Positions 20,591 through 42,209 of a DNA stretch of 64,000 bases are shown in pieces; position 1 is the stretch's first letter; the number at the start of each line of letters is the position of its first letter. This DNA is from an uncultured archaeon (GTDB taxonomy: Archaea; Nanobdellota; Nanobdellia; Pacearchaeales; GW2011-AR1), in NCBI GenBank assembly GCA_902385655.1, contig CABMGO010000005.1, positions 99,584-163,583 of the forward strand. Reading direction: 5' to 3'. The position numbers were made by a program, and so were the translations under genes. A model generated the notes under the pieces. It did not search any database, was not told the origin of the DNA, and saw nothing but the letters and a program-made list of their open reading frames with translations.

Positions 20591-20591
20591 A

Positions 20592-21310: not shown

Positions 21311-21368
21311 CCATTTCAAAGTGTCCTTCCATGCGGAAGGAAAATAAAAAAATAAAATTAAATTATAT

Positions 21369-21848: not shown

Positions 21849-21872
21849 TTCATAACCTCCTTTCAAACTTAG

Positions 21873-22319: not shown

Positions 22320-22329
22320 AAAAATCCTA

Positions 22330-22480
22330 AATGAAACATGTTTATAAACATTTCGCGAAACTATCGACGTAGTTGATATAATTGTATAATTTATAAAAAT
22401 TAAACGGAGTTTGATTTAGTTATGGCTCTGCAAGAGTCATCCCGAATTTTGGTTTGTCTTTATGCAGTTGAGGGGTAAAG
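22330..22480 (-). promoter_or_regulatory. Conserved pilus-regulon upstream module, copy C (TATA/BRE-like element ~25 nt from the ATG plus a family-A unit)
   Basis: Alignment with 14985-15185. Confidence 0.55.
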
Positions 22481-22488
22481 ATTGTCTT

Positions 22489-22983: not shown

Positions 22984-23624
22984 CAACCACCTTCCTGAGC
23001 AGACAACAAATTTCCTGCAGTAGTATTAGCTCTAAAAACAAAGTAATACTGATTGCTGGATGCCTGTGCTTTAGTCAAATCAATACTGTAATTTATTCCT
23101 CCAGACTCAACAGTTAAATTCTGATATGAGTTGATGTTTACCTTACTACTTTTTGGAGAATGATGAACACTACTCGTAGATGCGCCACCACTAATTCCAG
23201 TTTCAACAGTCGTTGTTCCTGGCCCGATGCTAACTGGCAACTGAGAAGGCAAATAAAGAATAATATCATAATTACCATAATTGTCACAAGTTAATTCATT
23301 CGAAGAAGTAGTATAACACGTAAAAATATCCAATTCTGGATAAGAATTCAAAACCGCAGCAACACTATCATTTACAAAATTAGCTACTTGAGAATTTCCG
23401 CTATAAAGACTGTAGTCTACCACTGCACCAGTCTCCTGATTTAATTGAGAACTATAGCTATAAAATTTTTTAGAAGATTCAGGAACATTAACAACATTGT
23501 AAACAACGCCCAAACCGATAATAATCACAGCAAGAATAACTGCCGCCAAAATAAAAAACTGACCTTTCCTATTTAGAATTTGAAATTTGAAATGATCCCT
23601 CTGGGAACCCCTTTTACTTTTCAT
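22983..23624 (-). CDS. Pilin-like protein (start reassigned to the first ATG)
   Basis: NRKGQ|FFILAAVILAVIIIG; conserved promoter CGAAACATTAATAAATG ~25 nt upstream. Confidence 0.5.
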   Translation of the reverse strand: MKSKRGSQRDHFKFQILNRKGQFFILAAVILAVIIIGLGVVYNVVNVPESSKKFYSYSSQLNQETGAVVDYSLYSGNSQVANFVNDSVAAVLNSYPELDIFTCYTTSSNELTCDNYGNYDIILYLPSQLPVSIGPGTTTVETGISGGASTSSVHHSPKSSKVNINSYQNLTVESGGINYSIDLTKAQASSNQYYFVFRANTTAGNLLSAQEGG

Positions 23625-23643
23625 AGATAACAAACATAATAAG

Positions 23644-24087: not shown

Positions 24088-25023
24088 ATGAATAAAATAA
24101 TAAATTTTATACTCACAATAATCTTACTAGGTGCACTCGCTTACGTCGGATATACAATATATCAGTATCTTCCAGCAGAAAAACAAATTCTTAACATTCA
24201 AACAGAAGCTAAACTTCCAGAAGTAAATGCGTCTTCAACAGTTACTCAATTTGTTCCAAACATGAGATTTGCAAAAAGCGACTTGAGTTATTTTTTCTAT
24301 CCTGGCTGCAGTCAAGACAAAGAAACAAGAATGAAGGAAGCATTTAGCACTATTTCATCACAGACAGGAATAATAACTTTCACAGAAAAAACAACTTTAC
24401 AAGAAGCAGACATAAAAATATTCTGCTCAGAAGTTCAAAAGGAAGTAAAACCAAATCAGTTCATTGCAGGAGAGGGCGGGCCAGATGAATTCCTTAACCT
24501 AAGTTTATATCCATTAATAGTTTCTGGAGAAATTTATCTTTACGATACTCTCTACAGGGACAAGTGCGACTATCCCCTCGTAGAATTACATGAACTCTTA
24601 CATGTATTTGGATTTGACCACGTAAATAAAAAAAGTTCAGTTCTTTATCCTTACTATTCATGTGGACAACAACTAGATTCTTCAATTGTAAACGAGTTAA
24701 TAAGAATTTATTCAATAACGCCAAAAGCAGAATTACATTTTGTAAACGCTAGCGCATCCAAACATGGCATTTATCTAGATTTCAAAACGCCAGTAGAAAA
24801 TCGAGGTTTAATAGAAGCAGAAAATGTAACAATTGTTTTATACTCGCAAGGAAAAGAAATAGCTAATTTTGACATGGGAAATATCTCTCCGGGAACGACA
24901 AAGAGCATAACTATTCAAAACCAAATTCTTCCTTCAAGATCAACTTCCGAGATAGAGTTCAGTACAATTTCAAATACTCAAGAATATTTTTCAGAAGACA
25001 ACCAAATTAGCGCAAAATTGTAA
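24088..25023 (+). CDS. Membrane-anchored metzincin-type zinc metallopeptidase
   Basis: HELLHVFGFDH (HExxHxxGxxH) motif; N-terminal TM anchor. Confidence 0.55.
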   Translation: MNKIINFILTIILLGALAYVGYTIYQYLPAEKQILNIQTEAKLPEVNASSTVTQFVPNMRFAKSDLSYFFYPGCSQDKETRMKEAFSTISSQTGIITFTEKTTLQEADIKIFCSEVQKEVKPNQFIAGEGGPDEFLNLSLYPLIVSGEIYLYDTLYRDKCDYPLVELHELLHVFGFDHVNKKSSVLYPYYSCGQQLDSSIVNELIRIYSITPKAELHFVNASASKHGIYLDFKTPVENRGLIEAENVTIVLYSQGKEIANFDMGNISPGTTKSITIQNQILPSRSTSEIEFSTISNTQEYFSEDNQISAKL

Positions 25024-25066: not shown

Positions 25067-25149
25067 GCCGACATCGCATAGTGGTATTGCATCAGGTTGC
25101 TAACCTGAGCCCTTTACTGGGCCCCAGGGTTCGATTCCCTGTGTCGGCG
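25067..25149 (+). tRNA. tRNA-Ser (anticodon GCU), long variable arm, no encoded CCA
   Basis: Manual fold: acceptor GCCGACA/TGTCGGC, anticodon stem TCAGG/CCTGA with loop TTGCTAA, variable hairpin GCCC..GGGC, T-arm CAGGG-TTCGATT-CCCTG. Confidence 0.85.
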
Positions 25150-25616: not shown

Positions 25617-26171
25617 ATGGAAGAAAAAGAGGATCTAAAAGAAGAGGATATTGAAAAATTAAAGCAAGCAAATATTAGTCTAATAATTGATACTTACGAT
25701 GATATTTTCTCAGACTTCGATCCAAGAGACTTTAACCAGCGAGCTCTTTCCGACGACTTTTTGATAGAATGTAAAAAAGCAGCAAGAGATAAACTAAGCG
25801 GAATAGAGTTAAGAATAATGGTTCCAAAATCAATAAGAAATTTTAAAGATGAGTCCAAAATAAAAAAAAGACTTTTAGATCATTTCAAACATCATTATTC
25901 TTTGGAAGAAAAACAAATAAGAAAAATAGTTTGGGAAGGAATTTCTTGGTTCGGACTTGGAACAATATTTATTTTAAGTGACTCATGGCTAAAAACATTA
26001 AGCATTAACAATTTTGGTTTAACAATTTTGTCAACAATATTAGAACCAGCAGGATGGTTTTCATTCTGGGAAGGATTAGGAAAAGTTTTCATAACAGCAA
26101 AGGAAAAATCAGAAAATTATGAATTCTACAAAAAGATGTCTGATGTAGAAATAAACTTTTTAGAATATTAA
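25617..26171 (+). CDS. Hypothetical protein with C-terminal TM segments
   Basis: ORF; hydrophobic segments. Confidence 0.4.
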   Translation: MEEKEDLKEEDIEKLKQANISLIIDTYDDIFSDFDPRDFNQRALSDDFLIECKKAARDKLSGIELRIMVPKSIRNFKDESKIKKRLLDHFKHHYSLEEKQIRKIVWEGISWFGLGTIFILSDSWLKTLSINNFGLTILSTILEPAGWFSFWEGLGKVFITAKEKSENYEFYKKMSDVEINFLEY

Positions 26172-27040
26172 ACTTTTGAAAGTTTCTTTAGTCTATTTTC
26201 TAAAACAGGCAAACTAGAATTAATTTTTTGAAGCCTCTCATGATACGAACTTGTTCTAACGTTATAAGTTAAAGCAGATATCTTATTCTCTTTAAATCGA
26301 TCAGTTTGTGCCTTTTTAATAAGTTCAGAAAGTGTGCTTTTCTCAGAATGTAATTTTCTAACTGTCATCCTCAAAAATCTAATTCTTAATTTAACATAAA
26401 CAAAATAAGTAAAGAAAATTAATATAACAATAAAAATAGTTATCTGTATCCAGTATCGATAAAAAAAGTTTCTCGCCTGTAATGCCAAACTTTTGAAAAT
26501 AGAATTATTTCCATATTCAGAATCATAAGAAGTTCTAAAACTCTCTAAATAGGTTTGAGACTCATTTAGCCTACCATTATAAAAAGAATCTCGCGCCAAT
26601 AAAAAGTAGTTAGAAGTTTCATTAGAAATAGGATCAGATAATTTTTTTTGCTCAAGATTTAACAGATCATACAAATCCAAAGTTTGCGAGCGAATATCTG
26701 AAACTCGGTTTGTCAAAGCAACGACATCTGAATACTGCAAATTCTTCCAATTTATAAACTGAAGTGCACTTCTTGCATCAATTCTTTCTTGCAAACTAGA
26801 ATTAACTTCTCCACGCAAAATTTGAGCATAAAGAACTTGTATGTAAACATTCTTCGCCTCGACAATTGTATCATTGATATCTGAGTAAGGCAAACTAAGA
26901 TTGATAAACTCATTCAAAATTTTTTCACTATTATTTATTGCGATCAATGCATCTTGAGCAGAATATGTCTGATTTGCTTCCGCCGCTAAAACAAAACTTC
27001 CAAAAAATAAAAATAGCGATAATAAAATTAACTTTTTCAC
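26168..27040 (-). CDS. Secreted or anchored coiled-coil protein (signal peptide, C-terminal TM anchor preceded by FFYRYW, short cytoplasmic tail); GTG start, GTGA-coupled to the giant gene
   Basis: N-terminal signal MKKLILLSLFLFFGSFVLAAEA; C-terminal TM; overlap aaGTGAaa. Confidence 0.5.
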   Translation of the reverse strand: MKKLILLSLFLFFGSFVLAAEANQTYSAQDALIAINNSEKILNEFINLSLPYSDINDTIVEAKNVYIQVLYAQILRGEVNSSLQERIDARSALQFINWKNLQYSDVVALTNRVSDIRSQTLDLYDLLNLEQKKLSDPISNETSNYFLLARDSFYNGRLNESQTYLESFRTSYDSEYGNNSIFKSLALQARNFFYRYWIQITIFIVILIFFTYFVYVKLRIRFLRMTVRKLHSEKSTLSELIKKAQTDRFKENKISALTYNVRTSSYHERLQKINSSLPVLENRLKKLSKV

Positions 27041-30000
27041 TTTGTAGCCACCTGCAAATATTTGCCTTCATATTTATCTTGGTTATTAACCAAATGCAAG
27101 GTGGTTTTCTCATTTTCTATTTCAGCGAGTCTCTCAGTGTACATCTCAAACTCAATGTCATACTCTGCCTTAGAAATTAATTTCTTTTTGAAATAATTTT
27201 CCTGCAATCTCACTATTTCAGATTCAACTTGCTTCGCTTCCAATTCTAAGTCCTTAGAAACTTGTTGAGCACTTAAAAGTTTTATCCGATTATTCCTTAA
27301 ATTAACTCTAGACTTCTTAATATTTGCAATTCTCTTCTGATATCTGTTCATCTCATCATGATAATCATGTGCAGACTTTCTTCCAGAAAGATACAATTTC
27401 TGAGAATGCTTTCTCAATTCTCCAATAGTCTTCTCTTCCTTATTTAGATCCTCTATTTTTTGAGAAATAGAATTTTTCTTATAAGCTCTAAAGCCTACAA
27501 TAGACACAAAACTCAACAAAATCAAAGCAACTAAAACGTATTGCCAGTACAGATAAAAGAACAACCCAACATTACCCTTTCTCTCTAAGACAAGAAGTAC
27601 TTGCGCCTGTCTCGCTCTCTCGAGTGCAAGTTCATAGTCTCCCCTCTCAAATGCTGCAGAAGCCAGATCAATAATCTCTTGAACATCTTGACTTGCAAAA
27701 ACTGCCTTACCTGTCACGTAATCAAAACTAGAAACACTTTGATTGTTGATATTAACTTCCCGAGCAACATTTCCGACAATTAAATTTGTCTTTGCAGGAT
27801 CATTCAAAGCAGTGACCAACCTGGCTATTAAATCATTCACAGTAAACGCCATCTTGCTAATGTCTATGACTTGTGAAGATAAATCGAAAGACTCCTTATT
27901 TCTTCTTATATCCAATTTAGATTTTGCTTGGTCAAACAAACTCTGAACATTAACCACATTAAATAAGTGCTCAGTCATATTCTTAAGTGCCTTCTCAGCA
28001 TCAAATAACTTATTACTAGCAACCTCATAACTTACTTCTTGAATGATTAATTTAATATATTGTGTTTCAGTATAATCACCGACAGTTTGATTATAAACAA
28101 TCTGTCCTCTAATATGTGCAGTAACATTATATTCTTCGTAAGCTTCCTTGTATGAAGGAACCTTCAAGGTAACAGTAAAAGATCCATTGGAGTTTGGACC
28201 AAGATATTTAATAATTGAAGGATAAAAGTCCATGTATTGAGACAAATATCCTGTTAAGTTAAGAGACAGATTTTGAAGGCTTGCCCCAGAACGATTATTT
28301 TGAACAACAAGATCGAGCTTGCCCCCCTCACCTCGAACAACATCAATTATTTTCGAATAAACTATTTCAGCTCCCCCGCCACCGCCGGCCTGGCTACTAA
28401 TTGTTCCGCCACCGCCGGCCTGAACAACAGTTTGAGTAATAGTTAGTGGATTTGTAATTCTTATATTCCTTAAATCAGAGGCGCTATCAGCATTAGATGA
28501 ATTAGCAAGAGCAGAAACATTAACAATTGAACCCGATATTGAAGAAGAAACATTTATCTTAATTGAATTTGTTCCAGAAACACCTACCGGAACAGTACCT
28601 AGATATCTAGACAGTATTCCAGAAGTTAAATCAAAACCTGAAGGCAAACTCCAGCTAAGATAAACGTCGTGAGCGTCAGCAGTTCCAAGATTAGTAACTG
28701 AAACAACAAAGTCTAGATCTCCTTGCCCTCGAGTAACTGAAGATGAGTATGTGTCAATAGAAACCGATAAATAAGGACCAGAAGCAGTTTGAACATTTAA
28801 GTTTCTTTCAATCACAACAGTTCCAGCTTCAGATCTAACAGTTATGTTATAAGGATAAAGAGCAGAAGTTAAACCAGTTAAGTTAACATACAGGGGAAGA
28901 TACAAAACATCTCCAGAAGATGCAGAATAATTTTCAGTTTGATTTAAAGTGTTATTCAAATTAAATCTGCCAACAATATCAGCACTCGCACTAATTGAAA
29001 CATTATAATTCAAAGAAGTATCCGAAGTTGTATTTAAAATAATGTAACCTAACTCATTGGAAGAACTTCTTTCGGTATAAGTAAAAGATTTCACAACAGT
29101 TATATTTGTACTGATAGCCTGAGAAACATCAGGATAGACACCAAGAGTATAGTTCGAAGAAATATTAGTATTGCCTTGCGCATCACTAGCATTAACATAA
29201 AATGTCCAGTTACCTTCGGCAAAAACAATGGAAGTATTATAATTCGTTAAGCTATTATTTGTCATCAGAGAAGTTGACCAAGAAGAATCTGAAATATTTT
29301 TATAATAAACTATTGCGCTACCCATCAAGTAATTATCACTAACTGTTGCATTTATTGTAACATCTACCCCCGGATCAAGTTCGTCACTAGTATTTGGAGA
29401 ATAAATTATTTCGCTAACTGATGGAGCCCGGTCATCCAAAACTGTCACAGTTCGACTTACACTATCATTAACTCTTCCAGCCAAATCAAACAAATAAACT
29501 TGAATAGAATAGACTCCAGGAGTATAATTTCCTTGAGTAAACAAGTAATTAATTGAATCAGCTGTTCCGCTCAAATCAATCTGAGAACCATTTACAAAAC
29601 TTCCGGAGAAATTATTACTTAATATTGCATAATCTAATCCAACAGCATCGGAAAAAGAGGCATTACATGTCAAATTTTTAGAATCATTAACTGTATTGTC
29701 ACAATTAAAAGAGTTTACAGAAGGGTTATTCAAATCCACACTCACAACCACAGTTCTATTTCCTTGATTTTTATTTGAAGAAGTATCATTCGCATAAAAA
29801 ATAATATTGTGTACTCCTTCAGCTAAACTAATAGTTGCATTCCAATTTCTCAAACTAGTATTACCCAAGTTAAATATACCAGAACCATTATTATATCCAG
29901 CCCAAGAAAGATCTTCGTTAGTACTTATATTCAATAATACGGAACCATCTAAGTCATATGAATTATTTAATGGAGATAAAACAGTAATAACTGGTGCAAC

Positions 30001-33000
30001 CAAATCGTTTACAGTCGTATCTACAACAATACTAACATTTGCAATTCCTAAATTGCCAGAACTATCAATTGCATAAAATATAACAGTATAACTTCCATCA
30101 GCAAGAGTCGAAGTTTTACTCCAGCTTACACCACTTCCAGTTAAAGAAACATTTGTTGTGCCTCCATCTAAACTATAATTTACTGAAACTACTTCCTCGT
30201 TTGTCGTTAGACTAAATAAGATAGAACTAGTCGAATAATTCTGAGCAATGGGAGAATTAATTGTTAAGACTGGAGCAGTCACATCATTTACATCGAAGGT
30301 AGTCGAAGTTGAATCCGTATTTCCTGCAGCATCAGTTGCATAAAATCTACAAGTGTAATCACTTCCTTTTTGAACATTTATAATAGTATAATTAGCATAA
30401 CCTGTAGAACTTAAATCGATTGTATGATTCATAAAAACCATCGGAGTAGTAGCGTCTTCACTAATTTTAACACTTGATAATGCGAAACTATCATTAATAT
30501 AGGCTGTACAATTCGCATTCTGAGTTTCATTTACAGATGTAGCCGAAACAGAACTGAATCTTGGAGCAAGAGTGTCCGCATAAAAAATAATTGAAGAACT
30601 ACCAATATTCCCAGAACTATCATTAGCATAAACCACTAAACTATTTGTAGATTCTTGAGCCAAGTCCGGAAGAGTTGCATTCCAGTTCAAAAGAGTAGTA
30701 TTGGTCAAAGAAATATTTGCACTTCCATTAAGAGAATATTTAACCCAGCTAACATTTTCATTAACACTTACATTTAATGCAACCCCGCTCAAAGATTTAT
30801 AAGAAGCATTTGCAATAGAATTTATCGTAACAACAGGAGAAATAAGATCTCCAGCACCAGTATTTATACTGAATACTACCGCACTAGAAACTCCTAAATT
30901 TCCAGAAGAATCATTTCCATAAAAGACAATAGAATATGCTTGGCCACTTACACCAGTAAAAGTTGCATTCCAATTCGTAGGTGAAGTATTTCCCATAGAA
31001 TAATTGAATCCAGTAGAATTGAGATGATACCAACCAGCAGACAAATTCTCATTTGAAATAAAACTGAATAATATATCTACCTGATTATAAACTCCACCAT
31101 TAGTTGGACTTGTTACAGTAATAGAAGGAGCAGTCACATCACTTACACTAAATGATGCAGAAGTAAAATTAGTATTCCCAGCTACATCAGCTGCGTAAAA
31201 TCTACAGACATAATTTCCAGCGTTAGCCAATTTACTTCCAACAATTACATAACTAGCTAATCCAGAATTTCCAGAAAATGAAATTGTGTGATTTTCAAAA
31301 CTACCTAAAGAATTTTCAGAAATAATTACTGAATTTATATTATAAGTGTCATTCCAGTAAATAGAACAATTTACAGGCAAAGACTGATTTGTCGAAGGTG
31401 CAGAAACAGAAGAATACCTTGGAGCCAAAGAATCAGCATAAAAAACAATTGTCCTGTTACCTTGATTTGCAGAACTGTCATTGCCGTACACAGTAATAGT
31501 ATAATTTGTTTCTTGACTCAGAGAAGTTAAATTAACATACCAAACTCTTGCAGTAGCACTCGTCAAATTCAATAAACTTCCACCGTTCAATCTATATCCT
31601 GCCCAAACCAAATCTTCGTCAGAACTAACATTAACATATGTTCCAGAAGGATTAGTATAGCTAGCATTAGATGGAGAAACAAAAGTCAAAGAAGGAGCAG
31701 TGATGTCTACTGGAGTTTGAATAGTAAAATATCTCAAAACACTAGATCCAAAGTTTCCAAAACTATCATTCGCATAAAAAGTTATGTTATGCAAACCATA
31801 AGCTAAGTTATTCAGACTTGCAATAAAAGAAGTTGATGAAAGATTAGTCATCGAAACATTTGCCGTGCCGTCTAAAGAATATCTTGCTGAAGCAGAAGCC
31901 TCTGAAGTTGCAATTTCAGCACTAATATTTACAGAAGAAAAACTAGTATTAGTCGGAGAAATAATTGTTATAGTTGGACCTGTTGAATCAGTTGTATAAC
32001 TTCCAGTCAAAGGATTTGCAGTAGCAGATTCATTCAAAGCATCTAAAATGTATGCATACCAATTATGTGTTGCAGAATCACTTTCAGAAGCAAACCCACA
32101 ACTAAGATTCGCAATAGCAGTTGCAAAGCAGTAAGTTCCATAGGTACATCCCGAGTTCGATATTCCAGATTGATTACAAACATACAACTTAATCGTCTGC
32201 CCAGAATCTGAATCAGAAGAAACTGTTGAAATGCTAACTGTCGTCCCGCCCAAAATTGTAGCAGCATTATCCGTTGCAGAACTAAAAACCGGAAGTTGAT
32301 TTATTTTTATTGTTTTACTAACTAGTGTTTGATTGTTACCTGAATAATCCGAAGAAAAATATCTCAAGTAATTTGTGCCTCTAACTAAAAAATTTATCTG
32401 ACCAAGATTATCTATCGCACCAGAAGGAGTACAAGTATTTGTTGAATCAGTACAATAATATGTTTTAGGATCAGAGTCAACATTATCTGCCTCGCTAATA
32501 GTTACTGCATACCCAGGTAATTGAACACTAGAAACCGAATTATCCGAAGTTGTTGGCGCAGTATAATCTAAAGTAAAATCTACATTCAAATTATCAGAAG
32601 CAGTCTGCTCATTTCCGTAAGAATCTTTACAAGAAACGTATCTCGTTGTTGCACCCTGAGAAACCACATCACTAACATTACAAGCAGCATATATTCCAGA
32701 AATGCTGCATTGATGACCTGAAGACATAGAAGAATAAGAACTATCTGAACTACTCCATCTGCAACTCATTCCAGATTGACCTGAGATATTTATCAGAGTA
32801 AATAAATCATTAACATTATCATAGTAGGGCGCAATAGTTCTCCCAGCAACACTTACAACAGAAGTAGACATTGAACTTCCGAGAACTGTGTAAGTATAAT
32901 TTACTTTATTAGAGTAAGAAACTCCATCGTACATCCTACAATAAATAGTATAATTTCCTGCGACTTTATTAGGAGTATAAGTACAATAAGGAGAGTAAGG

Positions 33001-34083
33001 ACTTAATAAATTAGAAACATTTCCTGAAGAACACATAGAGTTGTCTACTGGAAAAAGTGGAAAACTATCTGAACAATAAAATTGAAGAGTATCAAGATTA
33101 CTATCATTAACACTGTTGGCAGTAATATTCAAACTAGTAGAAATTCCGGAAGGATTTGGAGAAACAGTAATATTAGAAATAGTTGGAGGTAGATTAACAA
33201 AAAAAGTTAACGAGCTAGATGCATTATTTCCATAACTATCGTTTGCATAAACATACCATGTGTGGCTTCCAACAGAATCTGTCAAACCCGAAGTGATGTT
33301 TACCTGAACTCCAGAAGTGCAACTAAAACTTATATTTGTCCCATTACCATTATACCAACAAGACGCCAAATTATTATCACTAACAGTTACATTAAGACTT
33401 GTAACATTCGAAGTATAAGTAGTGTTCAGGGGATAAACAACATTTATTGAGGGAGGAATAGCATCAGGAGTATAAGTAACATTAAAATAAAGATCATCTA
33501 CGCTAAGTGTCTTCGCACCACCGGTTGTTGAAGCAACCTGTAAATATGCAATCGCTCTTGATCCCGAAGCCGTAAAAAAACTATCACAAGACCAATTTTC
33601 AATAGAAGTTACATCAGTACAAATTTCTCCAGGATTTGCAGTTGTTCCCGGACAAACACTAGAAGCAGTTTGATAAGAACCACCGGCATGTGCATCAACA
33701 CTGACACTACAAGTACCAATAGAAGAAGAGCTAGACCACCATTCATAACAAACTTTTACATTAGTAATCCCTCCGCAATTAGAAACACTAGAGTTATAAT
33801 TAGAAGTTCGAATACCCATAAACTGATTATTCCCATTGACAGAAGCACTCTGAATAACTGCATTATTAGTATCAATACTTGTTGTAGAACTACAAACTCC
33901 ACCGAACCCTTCACTAATCCCACTATTATTTTCTACAGCACAAGCCTGCGAAACCAAAACACTATTGGGAGAAGTTGCTCCAGGAAAAGCAAAAGCAGCT
34001 AATACACCAGCCAAACTCAAGAGAACAATAAATAAGAAAAAAACAGAAGAAATTCTTAAATTAGCTAATTTTCCAATAATCAT
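27037..34083 (-). CDS. Giant (2348 aa) cell-surface protein: N-terminal signal/TM, >20 Ig-like ~90-aa repeats extremely rich in N-x-S/T sequons, Gly runs, C-terminal TM anchor (FFYLYW...) and ~220-aa cytoplasmic coiled-coil tail
   Basis: SD GGGAGGAG 9 nt upstream; repeated motif AP..T..SP.N.SY...NE...Y.L.G...N.T...W...FYANDSSGN; hydrophobic helix near aa 2095-2120. Confidence 0.85.
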   Translation of the reverse strand: MIIGKLANLRISSVFFLFIVLLSLAGVLAAFAFPGATSPNSVLVSQACAVENNSGISEGFGGVCSSTTSIDTNNAVIQSASVNGNNQFMGIRTSNYNSSVSNCGGITNVKVCYEWWSSSSSIGTCSVSVDAHAGGSYQTASSVCPGTTANPGEICTDVTSIENWSCDSFFTASGSRAIAYLQVASTTGGAKTLSVDDLYFNVTYTPDAIPPSINVVYPLNTTYTSNVTSLNVTVSDNNLASCWYNGNGTNISFSCTSGVQVNITSGLTDSVGSHTWYVYANDSYGNNASSSLTFFVNLPPTISNITVSPNPSGISTSLNITANSVNDSNLDTLQFYCSDSFPLFPVDNSMCSSGNVSNLLSPYSPYCTYTPNKVAGNYTIYCRMYDGVSYSNKVNYTYTVLGSSMSTSVVSVAGRTIAPYYDNVNDLFTLINISGQSGMSCRWSSSDSSYSSMSSGHQCSISGIYAACNVSDVVSQGATTRYVSCKDSYGNEQTASDNLNVDFTLDYTAPTTSDNSVSSVQLPGYAVTISEADNVDSDPKTYYCTDSTNTCTPSGAIDNLGQINFLVRGTNYLRYFSSDYSGNNQTLVSKTIKINQLPVFSSATDNAATILGGTTVSISTVSSDSDSGQTIKLYVCNQSGISNSGCTYGTYCFATAIANLSCGFASESDSATHNWYAYILDALNESATANPLTGSYTTDSTGPTITIISPTNTSFSSVNISAEIATSEASASARYSLDGTANVSMTNLSSTSFIASLNNLAYGLHNITFYANDSFGNFGSSVLRYFTIQTPVDITAPSLTFVSPSNASYTNPSGTYVNVSSDEDLVWAGYRLNGGSLLNLTSATARVWYVNLTSLSQETNYTITVYGNDSSANQGNRTIVFYADSLAPRYSSVSAPSTNQSLPVNCSIYWNDTYNINSVIISENSLGSFENHTISFSGNSGLASYVIVGSKLANAGNYVCRFYAADVAGNTNFTSASFSVSDVTAPSITVTSPTNGGVYNQVDILFSFISNENLSAGWYHLNSTGFNYSMGNTSPTNWNATFTGVSGQAYSIVFYGNDSSGNLGVSSAVVFSINTGAGDLISPVVTINSIANASYKSLSGVALNVSVNENVSWVKYSLNGSANISLTNTTLLNWNATLPDLAQESTNSLVVYANDSSGNIGSSSIIFYADTLAPRFSSVSATSVNETQNANCTAYINDSFALSSVKISEDATTPMVFMNHTIDLSSTGYANYTIINVQKGSDYTCRFYATDAAGNTDSTSTTFDVNDVTAPVLTINSPIAQNYSTSSILFSLTTNEEVVSVNYSLDGGTTNVSLTGSGVSWSKTSTLADGSYTVIFYAIDSSGNLGIANVSIVVDTTVNDLVAPVITVLSPLNNSYDLDGSVLLNISTNEDLSWAGYNNGSGIFNLGNTSLRNWNATISLAEGVHNIIFYANDTSSNKNQGNRTVVVSVDLNNPSVNSFNCDNTVNDSKNLTCNASFSDAVGLDYAILSNNFSGSFVNGSQIDLSGTADSINYLFTQGNYTPGVYSIQVYLFDLAGRVNDSVSRTVTVLDDRAPSVSEIIYSPNTSDELDPGVDVTINATVSDNYLMGSAIVYYKNISDSSWSTSLMTNNSLTNYNTSIVFAEGNWTFYVNASDAQGNTNISSNYTLGVYPDVSQAISTNITVVKSFTYTERSSSNELGYIILNTTSDTSLNYNVSISASADIVGRFNLNNTLNQTENYSASSGDVLYLPLYVNLTGLTSALYPYNITVRSEAGTVVIERNLNVQTASGPYLSVSIDTYSSSVTRGQGDLDFVVSVTNLGTADAHDVYLSWSLPSGFDLTSGILSRYLGTVPVGVSGTNSIKINVSSSISGSIVNVSALANSSNADSASDLRNIRITNPLTITQTVVQAGGGGTISSQAGGGGGAEIVYSKIIDVVRGEGGKLDLVVQNNRSGASLQNLSLNLTGYLSQYMDFYPSIIKYLGPNSNGSFTVTLKVPSYKEAYEEYNVTAHIRGQIVYNQTVGDYTETQYIKLIIQEVSYEVASNKLFDAEKALKNMTEHLFNVVNVQSLFDQAKSKLDIRRNKESFDLSSQVIDISKMAFTVNDLIARLVTALNDPAKTNLIVGNVAREVNINNQSVSSFDYVTGKAVFASQDVQEIIDLASAAFERGDYELALERARQAQVLLVLERKGNVGLFFYLYWQYVLVALILLSFVSIVGFRAYKKNSISQKIEDLNKEEKTIGELRKHSQKLYLSGRKSAHDYHDEMNRYQKRIANIKKSRVNLRNNRIKLLSAQQVSKDLELEAKQVESEIVRLQENYFKKKLISKAEYDIEFEMYTERLAEIENEKTTLHLVNNQDKYEGKYLQVATK

Positions 34084-34254
34084 TTTCTTAACTCCTCCCT
34101 CAAAGTCTTTTCAACAAAATCAGAAATCTCAAAACCTTCGTTGATACAATGGATTTTTACTTTTTTCCACAAGTCTTCATCAATCTTTAAACTAGTAGTC
34201 TTTCTCACCATTTTACCAAACTCTCCGAGTATTAAAATTTAGTTTGAGAGTTGG

Positions 34255-34450
34255 TAAGGCTGAACAAAAACGCTTCGAACAAAATTGACTCTGTTCATTA
34301 TATTTTTTGTGAAATGCATTTTTGTGAATTAAAAATGCGGAGCATTGACTGCCGCTAACGGTGAACAAAACGCTTTGAGTAAAACAAATTTCTTTTTCAT
34401 TGGTACGAAATGCATTTTGTGAGTTCTTTTTCGATCGAGCCAACAGCTCG
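34255..34450. repeat. Imperfect ~65-bp direct repeat (GAACAAAA(A)CGCTTYGA...TGTGAAATGCATTTT...) in the upstream region of the giant gene
   Basis: Two copies aligned by eye. Confidence 0.45.
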
Positions 34451-34596
34451 AAATCATTCGAAAAACGCCCTAGACAATTTTCAGTAGTTTTCATCATCCT
34501 CTTTTTATAATTATATACTGTAAAACAACTATTTAAAGCTTTCTTTACAGTATTATAGTATTATGAAATATTTTAATACCATAAATCTAAGAATAA

Positions 34597-35805
34597 TTAA
34601 CCCGTATCGCTAAACACTTCCTGTTCAGGATAAACAACAATTCCTTCAGCAGTTATTTGGGCGGCAACTATTTTCTTTTGATGAGAAACCCCTCGAAGTT
34701 TTAATAACTCGATGGCATTTTCTCTAACATTTCCGTGCTTCAATGCATACAAAACAATTACCCCATCAGCCAAGAACTCCTCTACACCTGTTTGTGAAAA
34801 TATTTTAGGAACTTGTTCTGTTTCAGTAACTAAAAATGAAGTAGCACCAGTTTTTTCCAAGAATCTAAATAATTGTTCAATATAAATACGATAACTATCT
34901 TCTTTCCCAGTAAATGCAGAAGCTATCGCAGTCAAAGAATCAATGACTACAAAATCAGGATGCGCAAAATCCTCAGGCATAATTACTGGATCAACATCAA
35001 TCAATAACTCTCCTTTCTGTTGTGCAAGTAACGCATCAACATTTCTCGTAATATCGAATGGATTCATTCTCTGCAATCTTAATTTTCCTTTTTTAATTAA
35101 TTCCCTAGGATTCCAACCAAAACCTTCCATATGCTCAATCAACCTTTCCTCATTCTCTTCAAAGCTCATATAGAAACATTTTTTTCCTTCTCTTGCCTTG
35201 TTAATTAAAGTCTGTAAACAAAAAATAGTTTTACCACTTCCAGCACCACCAGCAACTAGTACAGAAGAACCAGAGGGAATTCCTTGTTCAAGTAAATCAT
35301 CAAAACCTTTAATTCCAGTTTTCACATAATCTTTCCCTAGCTTTCCAGTTTTTTCCTTAGAACCCTCAAGAACATGAACTAACGGTGCTCTTTTTTCAAA
35401 AATTTCAGCCTCAGATTTTTTTATTTTTCCGCCGCGTAATTTTTCTTCAACTTCTTGTTTAACTTTAGTAGCATCAAATTCTTTTTGTTTAGAAACTTCA
35501 ACTTTCTTATCAGATTTTTTCTTAATATGCTTTTCCTCTAACGAAACTATCTTTGCTTTATCCCCTTGCTCGACAACTTCCTCTTCACCCGCTTTCCAAC
35601 TGTGAAGTTTGGCCATATTAACTTTTCTAACACCAACATGATTTGCTCCAATTAGTCCGTGAAGTCTAGCAAGAACAGTATGTCTCGCTAAACCAGTCAT
35701 TTTCATAATATCGACGATAGAAAGTCCTTCAGGATGACTTTTAAGTAAATCAGAAATCGTAGTCTTCACCTTATCTTTTTCAACTATTACCATAACCTCT
35801 CCCAT
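34597..35805 (-). CDS. Winged-HTH + KaiC/RecA-superfamily ATPase
   Basis: Walker A GGAGSGKT, Walker B FVVIDS, KaiC-like core; N-terminal HTH; start set at MGEV with TATA TTTATAAATAAA 16-27 nt upstream (leaderless). Confidence 0.7.
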   Translation of the reverse strand: MGEVMVIVEKDKVKTTISDLLKSHPEGLSIVDIMKMTGLARHTVLARLHGLIGANHVGVRKVNMAKLHSWKAGEEEVVEQGDKAKIVSLEEKHIKKKSDKKVEVSKQKEFDATKVKQEVEEKLRGGKIKKSEAEIFEKRAPLVHVLEGSKEKTGKLGKDYVKTGIKGFDDLLEQGIPSGSSVLVAGGAGSGKTIFCLQTLINKAREGKKCFYMSFEENEERLIEHMEGFGWNPRELIKKGKLRLQRMNPFDITRNVDALLAQQKGELLIDVDPVIMPEDFAHPDFVVIDSLTAIASAFTGKEDSYRIYIEQLFRFLEKTGATSFLVTETEQVPKIFSQTGVEEFLADGVIVLYALKHGNVRENAIELLKLRGVSHQKKIVAAQITAEGIVVYPEQEVFSDTG

Positions 35806-35820
35806 CAATTTTAAAACACA

Positions 35821-35832
35821 TTTATTTATAAA
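35821..35832 (-). promoter_or_regulatory. TATA box of the leaderless wHTH-KaiC-like gene
   Basis: TTTATAAATAAA ~20 nt upstream of the ATG. Confidence 0.45.
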
Positions 35833-35894
35833 TGTTGCGATATATGACAGTTGTATATGCCTAATAAATAAAACATATGAATTTGACAAGTATA

Positions 35895-36273: not shown

Positions 36274-38613
36274 TCACTCTAGCAACTTCTTCAACTTTTT
36301 CTGCTCTTCAAGAATATTCTTTTCTACAGAATTGACCTTCTTCTTCAAATCTTTTTTAGCTTCTAAAAGCATTTTCTTTCTAACCTCATCATTTTCAGAT
36401 TCCAATCTGTGTTTCTCATGCATCTCAAAAGCACGTTCTTGTTTTTCAGTCTGACTTTGCAATTCCTTTTGTTTTCTAGCTAATTCATCATCAAATTTTT
36501 TCTCCATTACAAGTTTTTCATTTTTTATTTGTTTCTCAAAATCACTCTTCTGAGATTCCATCGTAGCAACAAACATATTTTTTTGTTTTTCAAGCTCAGC
36601 AGATTCCTCTTTCTTAAGATCTTCAACCTGTCGATTAAATTCTACTTTCTCTTCTATAAACTCTTTACCCAATTTGCTCTTTTCAACTTCCAAATTTTTC
36701 TTCTCAATAATTTTATCATGTAAACTCTCTTTAAGCTCCTTCAGTTGAGCCATTTGAGCAGCACTAATTTCCTTATTATTCTTAAGTTCAGAAATTTTTT
36801 TCTTTAGCTCTTCATTCAGTTTATTCAAAGACTCAGCCTGAGTAAGTACCTCTTTTCTAAACTGTTCTTCTTCTCTCGAAAGTTGCTTTTTTTCATCAGC
36901 TACCTGCAAATTCAAATTTTTTATCTGAGAATTATATTTATTTTGTAAATTAATCTCAAAAGATTTCTCGTGTTCTTCAAATTTCTGCTTAAACTTGTTC
37001 TCTAATTCAACTCGTCTAGATTTGTATCTTTCAGCCAATTCGACACGTTCTTTTTTCAAAGACTGCAAAAGATCTTGATTAACTTTCTTCTGACTTTGTT
37101 CAGCCGAGAATAATTTATTATATTTTTCTTCCAAATTGCGTTCTTCTTTTCTATTTTTTTCCACAAGCTCTTTTTCTTCTCTGCCAAACTGTTCTTCTAG
37201 CTTAAGCTCTTCAGATTCCAATGTTTTTCTAGATTCCTCCCTAAGAGAATTAAGAAGATTTTTTCTTACAGATTCATTTTCAAATTCCAACTTTTTTCTT
37301 TCTTGAGCTTCAAACTTTCTCTCTTCCTGTTTTTCTTGTCTCACTAATTCTTCCTCTCTTCTTTTAAAACGATTTTGCAAAGCAAGTTCTTCAGATTTTA
37401 ATTTCTGATTTAATTTTAATTCAATCTCTCGTCTTATTTTATTTTTTAATGCCTCGCTAATTTGTTCACGCTTTTTCCTTTCCTGCTCCTTTTCTTCTTT
37501 CTTAATTAAATTTTCTAATTTCTTATCTAAATCAGATTCTCTTTTCTGTAAAGAATTGCTATATGCTTCTCTTTCTAATCTGAGCTGATTTTCCTTAATT
37601 TTCAAATCCCCAATTCTTGATTTAAGATTTTTTAGAAGAGAAACTTGAGTTCCACTAACTCCTTTCGCACTAAGTTCTGCAGCCTGACCATTCAAGCCGT
37701 TCTTCAATTTTCTTAAAGATTCAGATTTGTTCGCAAGATCATTTTTCAACTTTTGCTCTTGAGATTTCAGTTTTTGTTTTTCCTTATCAACACTTTCTTT
37801 AATACGTTTGACTCTCAAATCGCTTTTTTTCTGAAATTCTAATTCTAAACTCTTTTTCTGATTATCCAAAGCTTTTTTCAACTGTTCCTTGAGTTCTGCA
37901 GAATATTTTTTCTGAAGTTTAGACTTCTCCCTTTTCAGATTTTTCTCCTCTTCCTTACTCAACTCTTCTTCAATTTCCTTTTCAGCCTCTGACTCATCTA
38001 CTTCTTCCTCTTTCTTCCCTTTCTTCTTGCCTCCCTTAAAGAAAAACAACTCTTCGGACTTGGAAGGAATTTCTTTAGAAACGCCTAATGCAACCTTGCC
38101 GGATTTCCCAATCAAAAGATGTTGTCGAGCATATGCATGATAGTCCTGATCATCACCAAGAATATGGTTTCTCAGCCAATTAGCCATAAAAGTCCTCGCT
38201 TCAGCGATTAAATTCAAAAGACTAAAAGAAGTAATAGTGCTCTTATCCGAACGATATAACTGAGTATATAGTTTATCTTTAAAATTTAAAAAATACTCCA
38301 CAAAAGCCAAATGAATTTTTCGGTGCATCTCCAATTTAGGGTACTCAATTCTTTTCATATAACCTTCTTCATAAGAAAAATGTTCTCGAGCATATTTATC
38401 AGTCAAATCAATAATCTCTCGGATCCTTGCAACTTCTTCCCCCTCCTTAGTTTCAACAAGCAATCGATTGAGTATTCCAAGTAATCCTTGATGTTGATGA
38501 TCGATGTTAGCCTCTTCTACGCTCATCTTGGGAATCCAAACGACTGGCTTGCCTTTAGCAATAACTAACCTCCCCTGCTTAATTTTGCCTATAACCTCTT
38601 TTTTATTTTTCAT
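36274..38613 (-). CDS. Hemerythrin-domain protein with ~600-aa K/E-rich coiled-coil extension
   Basis: N-terminus IDHQHQGLL...HFSYEEGYM...HRKIHLAF...WLRNHILGDD (bacteriohemerythrin pattern); the rest is heptad-like KE repeats. Confidence 0.55.
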   Translation of the reverse strand: MKNKKEVIGKIKQGRLVIAKGKPVVWIPKMSVEEANIDHQHQGLLGILNRLLVETKEGEEVARIREIIDLTDKYAREHFSYEEGYMKRIEYPKLEMHRKIHLAFVEYFLNFKDKLYTQLYRSDKSTITSFSLLNLIAEARTFMANWLRNHILGDDQDYHAYARQHLLIGKSGKVALGVSKEIPSKSEELFFFKGGKKKGKKEEEVDESEAEKEIEEELSKEEEKNLKREKSKLQKKYSAELKEQLKKALDNQKKSLELEFQKKSDLRVKRIKESVDKEKQKLKSQEQKLKNDLANKSESLRKLKNGLNGQAAELSAKGVSGTQVSLLKNLKSRIGDLKIKENQLRLEREAYSNSLQKRESDLDKKLENLIKKEEKEQERKKREQISEALKNKIRREIELKLNQKLKSEELALQNRFKRREEELVRQEKQEERKFEAQERKKLEFENESVRKNLLNSLREESRKTLESEELKLEEQFGREEKELVEKNRKEERNLEEKYNKLFSAEQSQKKVNQDLLQSLKKERVELAERYKSRRVELENKFKQKFEEHEKSFEINLQNKYNSQIKNLNLQVADEKKQLSREEEQFRKEVLTQAESLNKLNEELKKKISELKNNKEISAAQMAQLKELKESLHDKIIEKKNLEVEKSKLGKEFIEEKVEFNRQVEDLKKEESAELEKQKNMFVATMESQKSDFEKQIKNEKLVMEKKFDDELARKQKELQSQTEKQERAFEMHEKHRLESENDEVRKKMLLEAKKDLKKKVNSVEKNILEEQKKLKKLLE

Positions 38614-42193: not shown

Positions 42194-42209
42194 ATCACGA
42201 TAAAACAAT

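What the first reader, a model, noticed from the sequence alone, without database searches (positions are those of the whole stretch)
27037..34083. Giant 2348-aa glycosylation-sequon-rich surface protein with >20 Ig-like repeats, bracketed by two membrane anchors and a cytoplasmic coiled-coil tail
This is the largest gene in the window. The architecture is signal/TM, ~2000 aa extracellular made largely of ~90-aa repeats (AP..T..SP.N.SY...NE..W..Y.L.G....N.T...W...FYANDSSGN), then a TM helix preceded by FFYLYW and a ~220-aa K/E/R-rich cytoplasmic tail. N-x-S/T sequons occur every few residues, indicating a heavily N-glycosylated archaeal surface protein. Giant surface proteins of this kind in small-genome archaea are thought to mediate cell–cell or host attachment. 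The cytoplasmic tail suggests signalling or anchoring to an intracellular partner.
Basis: partly seen in the sequence, partly recalled or inferred. Interest (0 to 1): 0.75.

Follow-up and report, generated by a model that had tools for sequence, protein, structure and literature searches.

The report
Giant glycosylated DPANN surface fibril protein
This is a real 2348-residue gene for a long, sugar-coated, Ig-domain surface fibre of a tiny symbiotic (DPANN) archaeon, of a kind already known, but it sits in a previously unannotated three-gene cassette with a conserved membrane anchor shared by over a thousand DPANN surface proteins.

Summary
The ORF (27037..34083, minus strand, 2348 aa) is real and is the largest in the window. 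It has about 28 full-length homologues in Pacearchaeota-type DPANN MAGs.

- There are about 18 beta-sandwich domains plus an orphan Cys-rich head. Only 7 are clear copies of the quoted repeat.
- The N-terminal hydrophobic segment looks like a cleavable Sec signal peptide, not a second anchor.
- The cytoplasmic tail is 148 aa, not about 220. The 155 helical residues before the TM are extracellular.
- There are 107 sequons, about one per 19 aa. That is twice chance (z=8.8), with none in the tail and 60 conserved.

New findings:
- The C-terminal module (helical bundle, TM, duplicated 53-aa tail unit) matches 1595 cluster representatives, none annotated. Named members are Pace-, Woese- and Aenigmatarchaeota.
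- The overlapping downstream 290-aa gene is a stand-alone paralogue of this module (hhalign 99.9%). It follows the giant gene in 10 confirmed further loci (an 11th by size and position only) and is fused to it in at least 14 representatives.
- A 43-aa ribbon-helix-helix gene overlaps the giant's start.
- A KaiC-like ATPase or related signalling genes lie nearby in 9 of 12 loci.

Best reading: a fibrillar adhesin-like type I surface glycoprotein with a swappable head, a variable-length stalk and a two-subunit anchor. The adhesion and signalling roles are inferred.

The parts
34080..34211 (-). 43-aa ribbon-helix-helix (RHH) DNA-binding protein; first gene of the cassette. Its stop overlaps the giant's ATG (ATGA).
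   Evidence: ORF and junction. Homologous small ORFs overlap the giant's start in 7 of 7 family loci (alignment A7). The profile hits the RHH regulator SvtR (PDB 2kel) at E=1.6e-5. Pfam gives DUF6364, CopG_antitoxin, RHH_1 and Omega_Repress matches.
27037..34083 (-). Giant gene, 2348 aa plus stop.
33988..34083 (-). aa 1-32: Sec-type signal peptide. K/R n-region, ~20-aa h-region, A-F-A then F33. Probably cleaved.
   Evidence: Hydropathy. Homologue N-termini with AxA-type sites. AF2 models a low-confidence helix at aa 9-32. Cleavage is inferred; SignalP was not available.
33466..33987 (-). aa 33-206: distal head domain, beta-rich, with 8 Cys of which 6 are invariant. This is the lineage-variable tip.
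   Evidence: AF2. Alignment A8. No Pfam or PDB sequence relative. Other family members carry at least 5 unrelated heads at this position.
33193..33465 (-). aa 207-297: first A-type Ig-like repeat.
31990..33192 (-). aa 298-698: four non-repeat beta-sandwich domains (D2-D5). D3-D5 are the most conserved part of the family (56-59% identity) and have paired Cys.
29428..31989 (-). aa 699-1552: three ~285-aa A-A-B super-repeats (9 Ig-like domains). This is the variable-length stalk.
   Evidence: Self-comparison and HMM. Pfam Big_13 at aa 1290-1356, E=1.8e-13. Orthologues have 1, 3 or 5 super-repeats.
28450..29427 (-). aa 1553-1878: three membrane-proximal beta-sandwich domains (D15-D17), DUF4625-like and NPCBM_assoc/CARDB-like.
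28366..28449 (-). aa 1879-1906: Gly-rich disordered hinge (QAGGGGTISSQAGGGGGAE).
   Evidence: AF2 pLDDT below 50 at model residues 613-640. A poly-G run is conserved in the family consensus.
28039..28365 (-). aa 1907-2015: last beta-sandwich domain (D18).
27565..28038 (-). aa 2016-2173: extracellular juxtamembrane helical domain. It has three helices (pLDDT above 90), a disordered loop, then a helical hairpin with the AAFERGDY..A.ERA motif. This is the first part of the conserved anchor module.
27484..27564 (-). aa 2174-2200: single TM helix (LFFYLYWQYVLVALILLSFVSIVGFRA).
27040..27483 (-). aa 2201-2348: cytoplasmic tail. Four helices, made of two tandem copies of a ~53-aa unit (E.E..I..L....Q..YF.GKIS..EY......RLA.I). 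37% charged residues, no sequons.
   Evidence: Internal duplication: hhalign 97.7%, E=2.3e-12.
26168..27040 (-). 290-aa partner: signal peptide, helical ectodomain, FFYRYW-type TM and one tail unit. It is a stand-alone paralogue of the giant's anchor module. Its GTG start overlaps the giant's stop (GTGA), with GGTGG upstream.
   Evidence: hhalign of the partner family against the giant's C-terminal module: 99.9%, E=7e-34. A partner homologue lies immediately downstream in 10 of 11 loci where DNA could be read. It is fused to the giant-type module in at least 14 representatives.
34212..34596 (.). Intergenic region upstream of the cassette. It holds a ~100-nt tandem duplication, each unit carrying the palindrome AAATGCATTT, and TTTTAATA ~22 nt before the RHH ATG. 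Candidate promoter and operator.
   Evidence: The palindrome is not found in other loci. Function is inferred.
34597..35889 (-). KaiC-like ATPase with an HTH-like N-terminal region; conserved neighbour of the cassette.
   Evidence: Pfam KaiC/ATPase, 6.7e-53. A KaiC-like gene lies within 8 kb in the window, L001/2, L003/4, L005, L006, L009, L011 and L012. The HTH was read by eye, supported only by a faint HTH_IclR hit in the L005 homologue.

Best explanation
The gene encodes a type I membrane-anchored, heavily N-glycosylated surface fibril of a Pacearchaeota-like DPANN archaeon.

Proposed mechanism, step by step:
- A Sec signal peptide exports about 2140 residues (inferred).
- AglB-type glycosylation decorates up to ~105 sequons (inferred).
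- The ectodomain is a rod of about 18 Ig/FN3/PKD/CARDB-like beta-sandwich domains, roughly 70 nm if extended. It carries an orphan Cys-rich head at the far end and a Gly-rich hinge one domain above the membrane.
- The head is exchangeable between orthologues, and the stalk length varies in ~285-aa three-domain steps. This is the design of a fibrillar adhesin, so the most likely job is to reach and bind a host cell or surface ligand (inferred).
- The protein is held in the membrane by a conserved module: an extracellular helical bundle, one TM helix, and a cytoplasmic four-helix tail built from a duplicated 53-aa unit.
- The co-translated 290-aa product of the next gene is a stand-alone copy of the same module. 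It probably pairs with the giant's module to form a hetero-oligomeric base (inferred from paralogy, strict gene adjacency across three phyla, and gene fusions).
- A 43-aa RHH protein encoded at the head of the cassette probably controls its transcription (inferred).
- A neighbouring KaiC-like ATPase and two-component cluster probably controls the cassette, or receives input through the tails. This is the weakest step.
For: Gene and family:
- The ORF is real. There are ~28 full-length homologues at 28-53% identity, all with an N-terminal hydrophobic segment, one C-terminal TM and a tail.

Fold:
- Pfam Big_13 passes its gathering score.
- AF2 pLDDT is 80.9 and 77.9; the model is all-beta up to aa 2015 and helical after that.
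- Foldseek hits Ig-domain arrays, including the GhpA grappling hook at 2.5e-25, contactin and alpha-2-macroglobulin.

Topology and glycosylation:
- 105 sequons lie in the beta ectodomain (z=8.7) and none in the tail. Cytoplasmic proteins in the window have 0-0.9 per 100 aa.
- 60 sequons are conserved in at least half of the homologues.
- All 30 Cys are extracellular and paired within domains. K/R residues are enriched after the TM.
- Fusion proteins have three TMs spaced so that both tails stay cytoplasmic.

Adhesin-like design:
- At least 5 unrelated head types sit on the same conserved body.
- Orthologues carry 1, 3 or 5 A-A-B super-repeats.
- D3-D5 and the anchor are the most conserved parts.

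Anchor module:
- 1595 representatives match at E<=1e-3 and 538 at E<=1e-30. The module is nearly always C-terminal, in sequon-rich proteins of 400-5086 aa.
- Named members are Pacearchaeota, Woesearchaeota and Aenigmatarchaeota.

Partner:
- hhalign gives 99.9%, E=7e-34 against the giant's module.
- A partner gene lies downstream in every locus examined except L007.
- At least 14 representatives are giant-partner fusions.
- The genes overlap by 4 nt, with a Shine-Dalgarno motif upstream.

Regulators:
- RHH.
- KaiC-like and signalling neighbours.
Against: - Nothing here shows binding, glycosylation, signal-peptide cleavage or a giant-partner complex. All are inferred from sequence, models and gene order.
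- The head has no recognisable lectin or adhesin fold by sequence. Its fold could not be searched on its own.
- Tandem Ig-like domains, sequons and a C-terminal TM also describe archaeal S-layer and S-layer-anchor proteins (Kato et al. 2023, bioRxiv 10.1101/2023.10.27.564410).
- KaiC-like or related signalling genes are absent within 6 kb in L010 and L008, and the whole cassette is absent in L007.
- The loci sampled are few (12) and partly related, so some of the synteny may be inherited gene order.
- Some 'fusions' could be frameshift or gene-calling artefacts at the 4-nt overlap.
Confidence: 0.62

Rival explanations
1. It is the S-layer, or a main cell-envelope structural glycoprotein, of this archaeon. 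The 290-aa partner would act as a SlaB-like membrane stalk or anchor subunit, not as part of an adhesin.
For: - It has a signal peptide, many conserved sequons, tandem Ig-like domains and a C-terminal TM. These are the features used to nominate DPANN S-layer and anchor proteins (Kato et al. 2023).
- A large-plus-small co-transcribed pair recalls slaA/slaB (own knowledge).
- The helical juxtamembrane domain recalls the SlaB and tetrabrachion stalks (own knowledge; not tested).
Against: - Orthologues differ in length by 570-1150 aa through gain or loss of whole super-repeats, and carry unrelated heads. That is hard to reconcile with a conserved 2D lattice.
- DPANN S-layer candidates reported so far are ~1000 aa with ~5 Ig folds.
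- There are no Pfam S-layer family hits.
- The same anchor sits on hundreds of very different ectodomains, up to 5086 aa. That suggests a general anchor rather than a lattice subunit.
Confidence: 0.2
2. It is primarily a contact or ligand sensor (a receptor). Binding at the ectodomain would be transmitted through the TM and tail, together with the partner, to the adjacent KaiC-like ATPase and two-component network. Adhesion would be secondary.
For: - The cytoplasmic tail is conserved (42% identity) and duplicated, and is also present in the partner.
- KaiC-like, iKaiC (DUF7504/DUF7090), response-regulator, hemerythrin and histidine-kinase genes lie next to the cassette in three phyla.
- The KaiC superfamily has been proposed as an archaeal signalling hub (Makarova et al. 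2017, as cited in PMC5847659).
Against: - No known signalling domain is present in the tail.
- The signalling genes are missing near L010, L008 and L007.
- Neighbourhood alone fits equally well with the cluster merely regulating transcription of the cassette.
Confidence: 0.12
3. The cytoplasmic tails are homologues of the ribosome-binding four-helix bundle of OST1/ribophorin I. The giant-partner base would then dock ribosomes or the Sec/AglB machinery at the membrane.
For: - PDB 8whn (cytoplasmic domain of Prometheoarchaeum OST1) is the top PDB sequence hit of three tail or anchor profiles. The alignment is in register over both tail units: E=0.09, E=0.07, and E=0.0024 with a local 171-sequence profile.
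- The context is the same: type I topology, directly after the TM helix.
- That domain binds ribosomes in pull-downs (PMC11417166).
Against: - The E-values are not significant in the official searches. The next hits, at E=0.09-1, are generic coiled coils.
- hhalign probability is only 12.5%.
- Eukaryotic ribophorin I chains were not hit.
- The tail is K/E-rich, which inflates such matches.
Confidence: 0.05

Closest known systems
DPANN N-glycosylated Ig-fold surface proteins with a C-terminal TM helix (e.g. Nanobdella aerobiophila MJ1_0299, MJ1_0707, MJ1_0076, MJ1_0691; Kato et al. 2023, bioRxiv 10.1101/2023.10.27.564410)
   Same: Both come from a DPANN archaeon. [quoted passage not shown] Some have lectin-like or beta-helix heads. 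Both are proposed to act in host contact.
   Different: Those proteins have 4-8 Ig folds and 13-52 sequons; this one has ~18 domains and 107 sequons. That paper describes no conserved helical-bundle/TM/duplicated-tail module, no paralogous partner gene and no RHH gene. Sequence homology to those proteins was not tested here.
Bacterial fibrillar adhesins (e.g. SiiE, RTX adhesins, GhpA grappling hook)
   Same: Both have a distal, exchangeable tip, a stalk of tandem Ig-like domains whose copy number varies between relatives, and a cell-anchoring module at the other end. Structural matches here are to GhpA (Foldseek 2.5e-25), and to SiiE BIg and CLIPPER domains.
   Different: This protein is archaeal and Sec-exported with the N-terminus distal. 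It is anchored by a TM helix with a cytoplasmic tail and a partner subunit, rather than by sortase/LPXTG, a T1SS retention module or a beta-barrel. It is N-glycosylated. No known adhesive domain is present.
Nanohaloarchaeal giant 'SPEARE' surface proteins (Hamm et al. 2019; re-analysed in PMC10266531)
   Same: Both are giant membrane-anchored DPANN surface proteins: Sec signal peptide, long run of Ig-like domains, TM, then a cytoplasmic C-terminal part. Both have a functionally linked gene immediately downstream.
   Different: SPEARE proteins are 3-4 times longer. Their cytoplasmic part is a VirB4/TraG-like ATPase, with a second ATPase gene downstream. Here the tail is a 148-aa helical domain with no ATPase or other enzyme domain, and the downstream gene is a paralogous anchor.
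SlaA/SlaB two-gene S-layer of Sulfolobales and tetrabrachion of Staphylothermus (own knowledge)
   Same: Both are a co-transcribed large glycoprotein plus a small membrane-anchored helical subunit, with a helical stalk next to a C-terminal TM.
   Different: Here the large protein carries its own TM anchor and tail. The small protein is a paralogue of that anchor. There is no sequence or Pfam similarity, and the variable heads and lengths argue against a lattice.
OST1/ribophorin I cytoplasmic four-helix bundle (PDB 8whn; PMC11417166)
   Different: The similarity is not statistically secure. There is no Ribophorin_I luminal domain. OST1 is reported only from eukaryotes, TACK and Asgard archaea.

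Membership tests
Pfam Big_13 (PF19077) bacterial Ig-like domain | Match to the family HMM at or above the gathering score (27 bits). | tested here: met
   51.2 bits, E=1.8e-13, best stretch at aa 1290-1356. Homologues also carry precomputed PF19077 hits.
Fibrillar adhesin (tip, repeated stalk, anchor) | A stalk of tandem, mutually similar domains whose copy number varies between relatives. | tested here: met
   7 A-type repeats here, and 2 to 11 in orthologues.
Fibrillar adhesin (tip, repeated stalk, anchor) | A recognised adhesive or ligand-binding domain at the tip. | tested here: not met
   The head (aa 36-206) has no Pfam or PDB sequence match. Some orthologues carry Laminin_G_3 at the tip. 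The head's fold could not be searched separately.
Fibrillar adhesin (tip, repeated stalk, anchor) | Demonstrated binding to a host or surface ligand. | not testable with these tools
   Needs experiment.
Archaeal S-layer glycoprotein | Signal peptide, N-glycosylation sequons and a C-terminal membrane anchor. | tested here: met
   The anchor is followed by an unusual 148-aa cytoplasmic tail.
Archaeal S-layer glycoprotein | Sequence membership of a known S-layer family. | tested here: not met
   No S-layer Pfam or NCBIfam hit. No PDB S-layer chain appears among the sequence hits.
Archaeal S-layer glycoprotein | Forms the 2D lattice and is among the most abundant proteins. | not testable with these tools
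   Needs proteomics or cryo-ET. The variable length and heads argue against it.
SPEARE-type nanohaloarchaeal giant proteins | A cytoplasmic VirB4/TraG-like ATPase (originally described as protease plus nuclease) domain in the giant protein. | tested here: not met
   No such Pfam or NCBIfam domain. The tail has only weak coiled-coil-type hits.
SHOCT domain (PF09851) for the tail unit | Match to the SHOCT HMM or to a SHOCT protein. | tested here: not met
   No Pfam hit at E<=10. hhalign against a SHOCT protein from L001 gives probability 1%.
OST1/ribophorin I cytoplasmic domain | Significant sequence or profile similarity to the OST1 C-terminal four-helix bundle. | tested here: inconclusive
Ribbon-helix-helix regulators (small upstream ORF) | Beta-strand, helix, helix pattern and a profile match to RHH proteins. 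| tested here: met
   The A7 profile hits SvtR (2kel) at E=1.6e-5. Pfam: DUF6364 in 5 of 7 members, plus CopG_antitoxin, RHH_1 and RHH_9. The window copy alone is below the Pfam cut-offs.
Anti-phage defence or toxin-antitoxin system | A match of any cassette protein to PADLOC models. | tested here: not met
   No hits except a sub-threshold KaiC match to mad8 (E=0.007).

The most novel reading that the evidence does not exclude
The giant protein is one instance of an undescribed surface apparatus found in at least three DPANN phyla. Its parts would be:
- a small DNA-binding protein (RHH, replaced by a winged-helix protein in other phyla);
- a variable giant ectodomain mounted on a conserved 'helical bundle, TM, duplicated tail unit' anchor;
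- an obligatory stand-alone paralogue of that anchor.

The cassette would be genomically, and perhaps physically, coupled to the KaiC-based signalling network. In this reading the two tails form a cytoplasmic platform that reports or controls host contact. A weaker option is that the tails are related to the ribosome-binding domain of OST1/ribophorin I.
Probability: 0.3. Interest if true: 0.75.

Novelty: new variant of a known kind. Interest (0 to 1): 0.5.

Why it matters
DPANN archaea depend on physical contact with host cells, yet the molecules that make that contact are almost unknown outside a few cultured species.

The giant protein is, by itself, an expected kind of DPANN surface glycoprotein. 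The work around it gives three handles that can be tested directly:
- A sequence-definable anchor module marks more than a thousand otherwise unannotated DPANN surface proteins. It could be turned into a family model for cataloguing DPANN 'surfaceomes'.
- An obligatory small partner subunit predicts a specific membrane complex.
- A recurrent link to KaiC-type signalling genes and tiny DNA-binding proteins suggests how contact proteins are regulated.

Head swapping and stalk-length variation between close relatives point to where host specificity may be encoded.

Tried and rejected
- DNA tandem repeats: none found by TRF. The repeats exist only at protein level.
- Whole-protein blastp against itself returned only the identity hit. 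This was solved by searching 100-aa fragments.
- SHOCT-like tail motif (recalled from memory): rejected.
- Defence or toxin-antitoxin reading of the RHH plus ATPase context: no PADLOC hits.
- SPEARE-like ATPase or protease domains: absent.
- Word-index searches with the partner and with the anchor alignment found almost nothing. The exhaustive representative search was needed.
- Pfam and PDB sequence searches found no family for the anchor module, the head or the whole-family profile. The only exception is a marginal SiiE hit.
- The palindrome AAATGCATTT upstream of the cassette is not present in the other loci, so it is not a conserved operator.
- The afdb50 fold library was unavailable.
- Whole-model fold searches are dominated by generic Ig arrays and could not isolate the head or the helical base.
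- The OST1/ribophorin lead was followed through four analyses and remains statistically unresolved.
- Makarova et al. 2017 could not be read.
- No AglB/STT3 gene lies in the 64-kb window, so the glycosylation machinery was not verified.

Full report
**1. Observation**

The ORF at 27037..34083 on the minus strand is uninterrupted. It starts with ATG and encodes 2348 aa. It is the largest ORF in the window; the next is a 1150-aa PAS histidine kinase. The identical protein exists in NCBI as 'Uncharacterised protein [uncultured archaeon]' on a 317-kb contig.

The window is ~33% G+C. It encodes archaeal-type housekeeping genes such as RtcB, TrmB regulators, TYW2, class I aminoacyl-tRNA synthetases and type IV pilus-like ATPases. 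The closest homologues are labelled Candidatus Pacearchaeota or Nanoarchaeia. The organism is therefore a DPANN archaeon.

**2. Anatomy**

*Hydrophobic segments.* Hydropathy finds exactly two, at aa ~13-35 and aa ~2174-2200.

*N-terminal segment.* It has a K/R n-region, a ~20-residue h-region and A-F-A before F33. Homologues have short classic signal peptides ending in AxA-like sites. I therefore read it as a cleavable Sec signal peptide, not a second anchor. This is inferred; no signal-peptide predictor was available.

There are also diverged 'B' domains. Together they are arranged as three ~285-aa A-A-B super-repeats over aa 699-1552, with one further A copy at aa 207-297. TRF finds no DNA repeat, so these are old duplications.

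*Structure models.* Two AlphaFold2 models built on family alignments cover aa 1-1173 (pLDDT 77.9) and aa 1267-2348 (pLDDT 80.9). In order, they show:
- a beta-rich head, aa ~36-206;
- about 18 beta-sandwich domains, up to aa 2015;
- a disordered Gly-rich hinge at aa 1879-1906;
- three very confident helices at aa 2019-2094;
- a disordered loop;
- a helical hairpin at aa 2132-2170;
- the TM helix;
- four cytoplasmic helices.

**3. Topology and glycosylation**

All 107 N-x-S/T sequons lie before the TM. The beta ectodomain holds 105, which is 5.3 per 100 aa, against 54 +/- 6 expected from shuffles (z=8.7). The tail has none. Cytoplasmic proteins in the window have 0-0.9 per 100 aa, and the 290-aa partner has 3.1.

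Of the 102 query sequons covered by the alignments, 60 are sequons at the same column in at least half of the homologues. Several are conserved in 28 of 28.

All 30 Cys are extracellular and occur in within-domain pairs. K/R residues are enriched just after the TM.

The bulk of the protein is therefore outside, and the 148-aa C-terminus is inside. The tail is 148 aa, not ~220.

**4. The family**

About 28 full-length homologues (28-53% identity) share the body and anchor. They differ in two ways.

*Stalk length.* The number of A-type repeats is 2-3, 6-7 or 10-11. That corresponds to 1, 3 or 5 super-repeats, and explains the length classes of ~1700-1850, ~2300-2430 and ~2860-2930 aa.

*Head type.* At least five unrelated sequence types occupy the first ~170-250 residues. 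One is Laminin_G_3.

The query's Cys-rich head has no Pfam or PDB sequence relative. The most conserved parts are D3-D5 (aa 404-698, 56-59% identity) and the juxtamembrane hairpin. An exchangeable tip on a length-variable stalk is the design of fibrillar adhesins.

**5. The anchor module and its partner**

*The module.* The last 333 residues comprise the helical ectodomain, the TM and the tail. They were aligned from six diverged loci (A6) and searched exhaustively. There are 1595 cluster representatives at E<=1e-3 and 538 at E<=1e-30. The module is almost always at the C-terminus, in sequon-rich proteins of 400-5086 aa, most with an N-terminal hydrophobic segment.

Named members come from Pacearchaeota, Woesearchaeota and Aenigmatarchaeota, and all are labelled 'hypothetical'. 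No Pfam family or PDB sequence matches the module.

The tail is an internal duplication of a ~53-aa unit (hhalign 97.7%, E=2.3e-12).

*The partner.* The next gene (26168..27040) overlaps the giant's stop by 4 nt (GTGA) and has GGTGG upstream. It encodes a signal peptide, a helical ectodomain, an FFYRYW-type TM and one tail unit. Profile-profile comparison shows that it is a paralogue of the giant's module: 99.9%, E=7e-34, over 245 columns.

A partner homologue lies immediately downstream of the giant gene in the following loci.

| Group | Loci |
|---|---|
| Family loci | L001/2, L003/4, L005, L006, L009, L010 |
| Woesearchaeota loci whose giants share only the anchor | L008, L012 |
| Aenigmatarchaeota locus | L011 |

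A 313-aa ORF sits in the same place in the P0145 locus, but no DNA was available to test it. Only L007, a distant beta-helix-headed relative, lacks a partner.

*Fusions.* At least 14 representatives fuse a giant-type module to a partner-type module in one ORF. They have three TMs, spaced so that both tails remain cytoplasmic and both helical domains remain extracellular. This is a Rosetta-stone argument for a physical complex, and it independently supports the topology. Some of these fusions could be frameshift artefacts.

**6. Regulators**

*Small DNA-binding gene.* A 43-aa ORF (34080..34211) overlaps the giant's ATG (ATGA, with GGAGG upstream). Equivalent ORFs exist in 7 of 7 family loci. 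Their profile hits the RHH regulator SvtR at E=1.6e-5 and RHH-type Pfam families. In L011 and L012 the same position holds a 66-aa protein that reads as a winged helix-turn-helix (fold judged by eye). This looks like non-homologous replacement of the small DNA-binding gene.

*Signalling neighbours.* A KaiC-like ATPase gene (34597..35889) or related genes lie within 6-8 kb in 9 of 12 loci. The related genes include iKaiC-type DUF7504/DUF7090 proteins, response regulators, hemerythrin and histidine kinases. The KaiC superfamily has been proposed as an archaeal signalling hub (cited in PMC5847659). The link to the cassette is by neighbourhood only.

**7. Mechanism proposed**

*Shown here:*
- The gene, the family and the domain folds at model level.
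- The outside/inside asymmetry of sequons and Cys.
- The anchor family, the partner paralogy, the adjacency and the fusions.

*Inferred:*
- Sec export and signal-peptide cleavage.
- AglB-dependent glycosylation.
- An extended rod of ~70 nm (18 domains at ~4 nm each; own estimate) with a hinge near the membrane.
- Ligand or host binding by the head.
- A hetero-oligomeric base formed with the partner.
- Transcriptional control by the RHH protein.
- Input from, or output to, the KaiC-type network.

**8. Rivals**

*S-layer or envelope protein (0.2).* The general features are the same as those of DPANN S-layer candidates. Variable length and heads, and the use of the same anchor on hundreds of different ectodomains, argue against a lattice subunit.

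*Sensor or receptor (0.12).* This is not exclusive of adhesion.

*Defence or toxin-antitoxin system.* Rejected.

**9. Comparison with what is known, and novelty**

Large N-glycosylated, Ig-fold, TM-anchored surface proteins with lectin or beta-helix heads are already described for cultured DPANN (Kato et al. 2023). Giant membrane-anchored Ig-repeat proteins are known in nanohaloarchaea (PMC10266531). Large extracellular proteins of Pace- and Woesearchaeota have also been noted (PMC8204110). As a giant surface protein, this is therefore a new member of a known kind.

I found no description of the anchor module, its obligatory paralogous partner, the small DNA-binding gene or the recurrent KaiC-type neighbourhood. 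The literature search was limited to open-access text. I therefore rate the whole as a new variant of a known kind, with moderate interest (0.5).

Noticed in passing
window 34244-34425: A ~100-nt tandem duplication (72-83% identity) lies in the intergenic region upstream of the cassette. Each unit carries the perfect palindrome AAATGCATTT. These are the only two copies in the 64-kb window (0.38 expected). The palindrome is not found in any of the loci fetched by then (L001-L010).
   Followed up: partly
window 38610-45662 (-): Signalling cluster. It holds a 1150-aa multi-PAS histidine kinase and three stand-alone response regulators. The regulators alternate with 157-177-aa DUF7504/DUF835/DUF7090-like (inactivated KaiC-like) proteins. 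A 271-aa multi-TM protein lies at 39073-39888. Similar clusters flank the giant gene in other DPANN loci.
   Followed up: partly
window 36274-38613 (-): A 779-aa protein whose N-terminus looks hemerythrin-like by eye (His-rich HHE-type pattern), followed by ~600 aa of extremely K/E-rich predicted coiled coil. It has no Pfam hit even at E<=10. Hemerythrin genes occupy the equivalent position in L001 and in the P0145 locus.
   Followed up: no
window 16326-23633 (-) and 58721-60505 (-): A type IV pilus-like (TFF) cluster: two T2SSF platform genes, a T2SSE ATPase, and five small ORFs upstream, two of which (21369-21866, 22489-22986) are sequon-enriched (possible pilins). A second T2SSE ATPase lies at 58721-60505.
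   Followed up: no
window 24088-25023 (+): A 311-aa protein with matrixin (Peptidase_M10) and CARDB domains, likely a secreted or surface metalloprotease. It lies two genes from the cassette, next to tRNA-Ser(GCU) at 25067-25149.
   Followed up: no
P0107, P0112, P0124, P0125, P0128, P0129, P0137, P0169, P0173, P0182 and others: Single ORFs that fuse a giant-type anchor module to a partner-type module, with three TM helices. P0184 has four module copies and six TMs. Whether these are true fusions or frameshift artefacts at the 4-nt gene overlap was not resolved.
   Followed up: partly
L011:5804-6004 and L012:5804-6004: In the Aenigmatarchaeota and Woesearchaeota cassettes the small ORF overlapping the giant's start is a 66-aa winged-helix-like protein, not an RHH. 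This appears to be non-homologous replacement of the small regulator.
   Followed up: partly
L005:16803-19382: A protein of more than 2240 aa with a lytic transglycosylase (SLT) domain lies a few genes from the cassette. This is the class of large Pace-/Woesearchaeota proteins proposed to attack bacterial cell walls (PMC8204110).
   Followed up: no
   Followed up: yes
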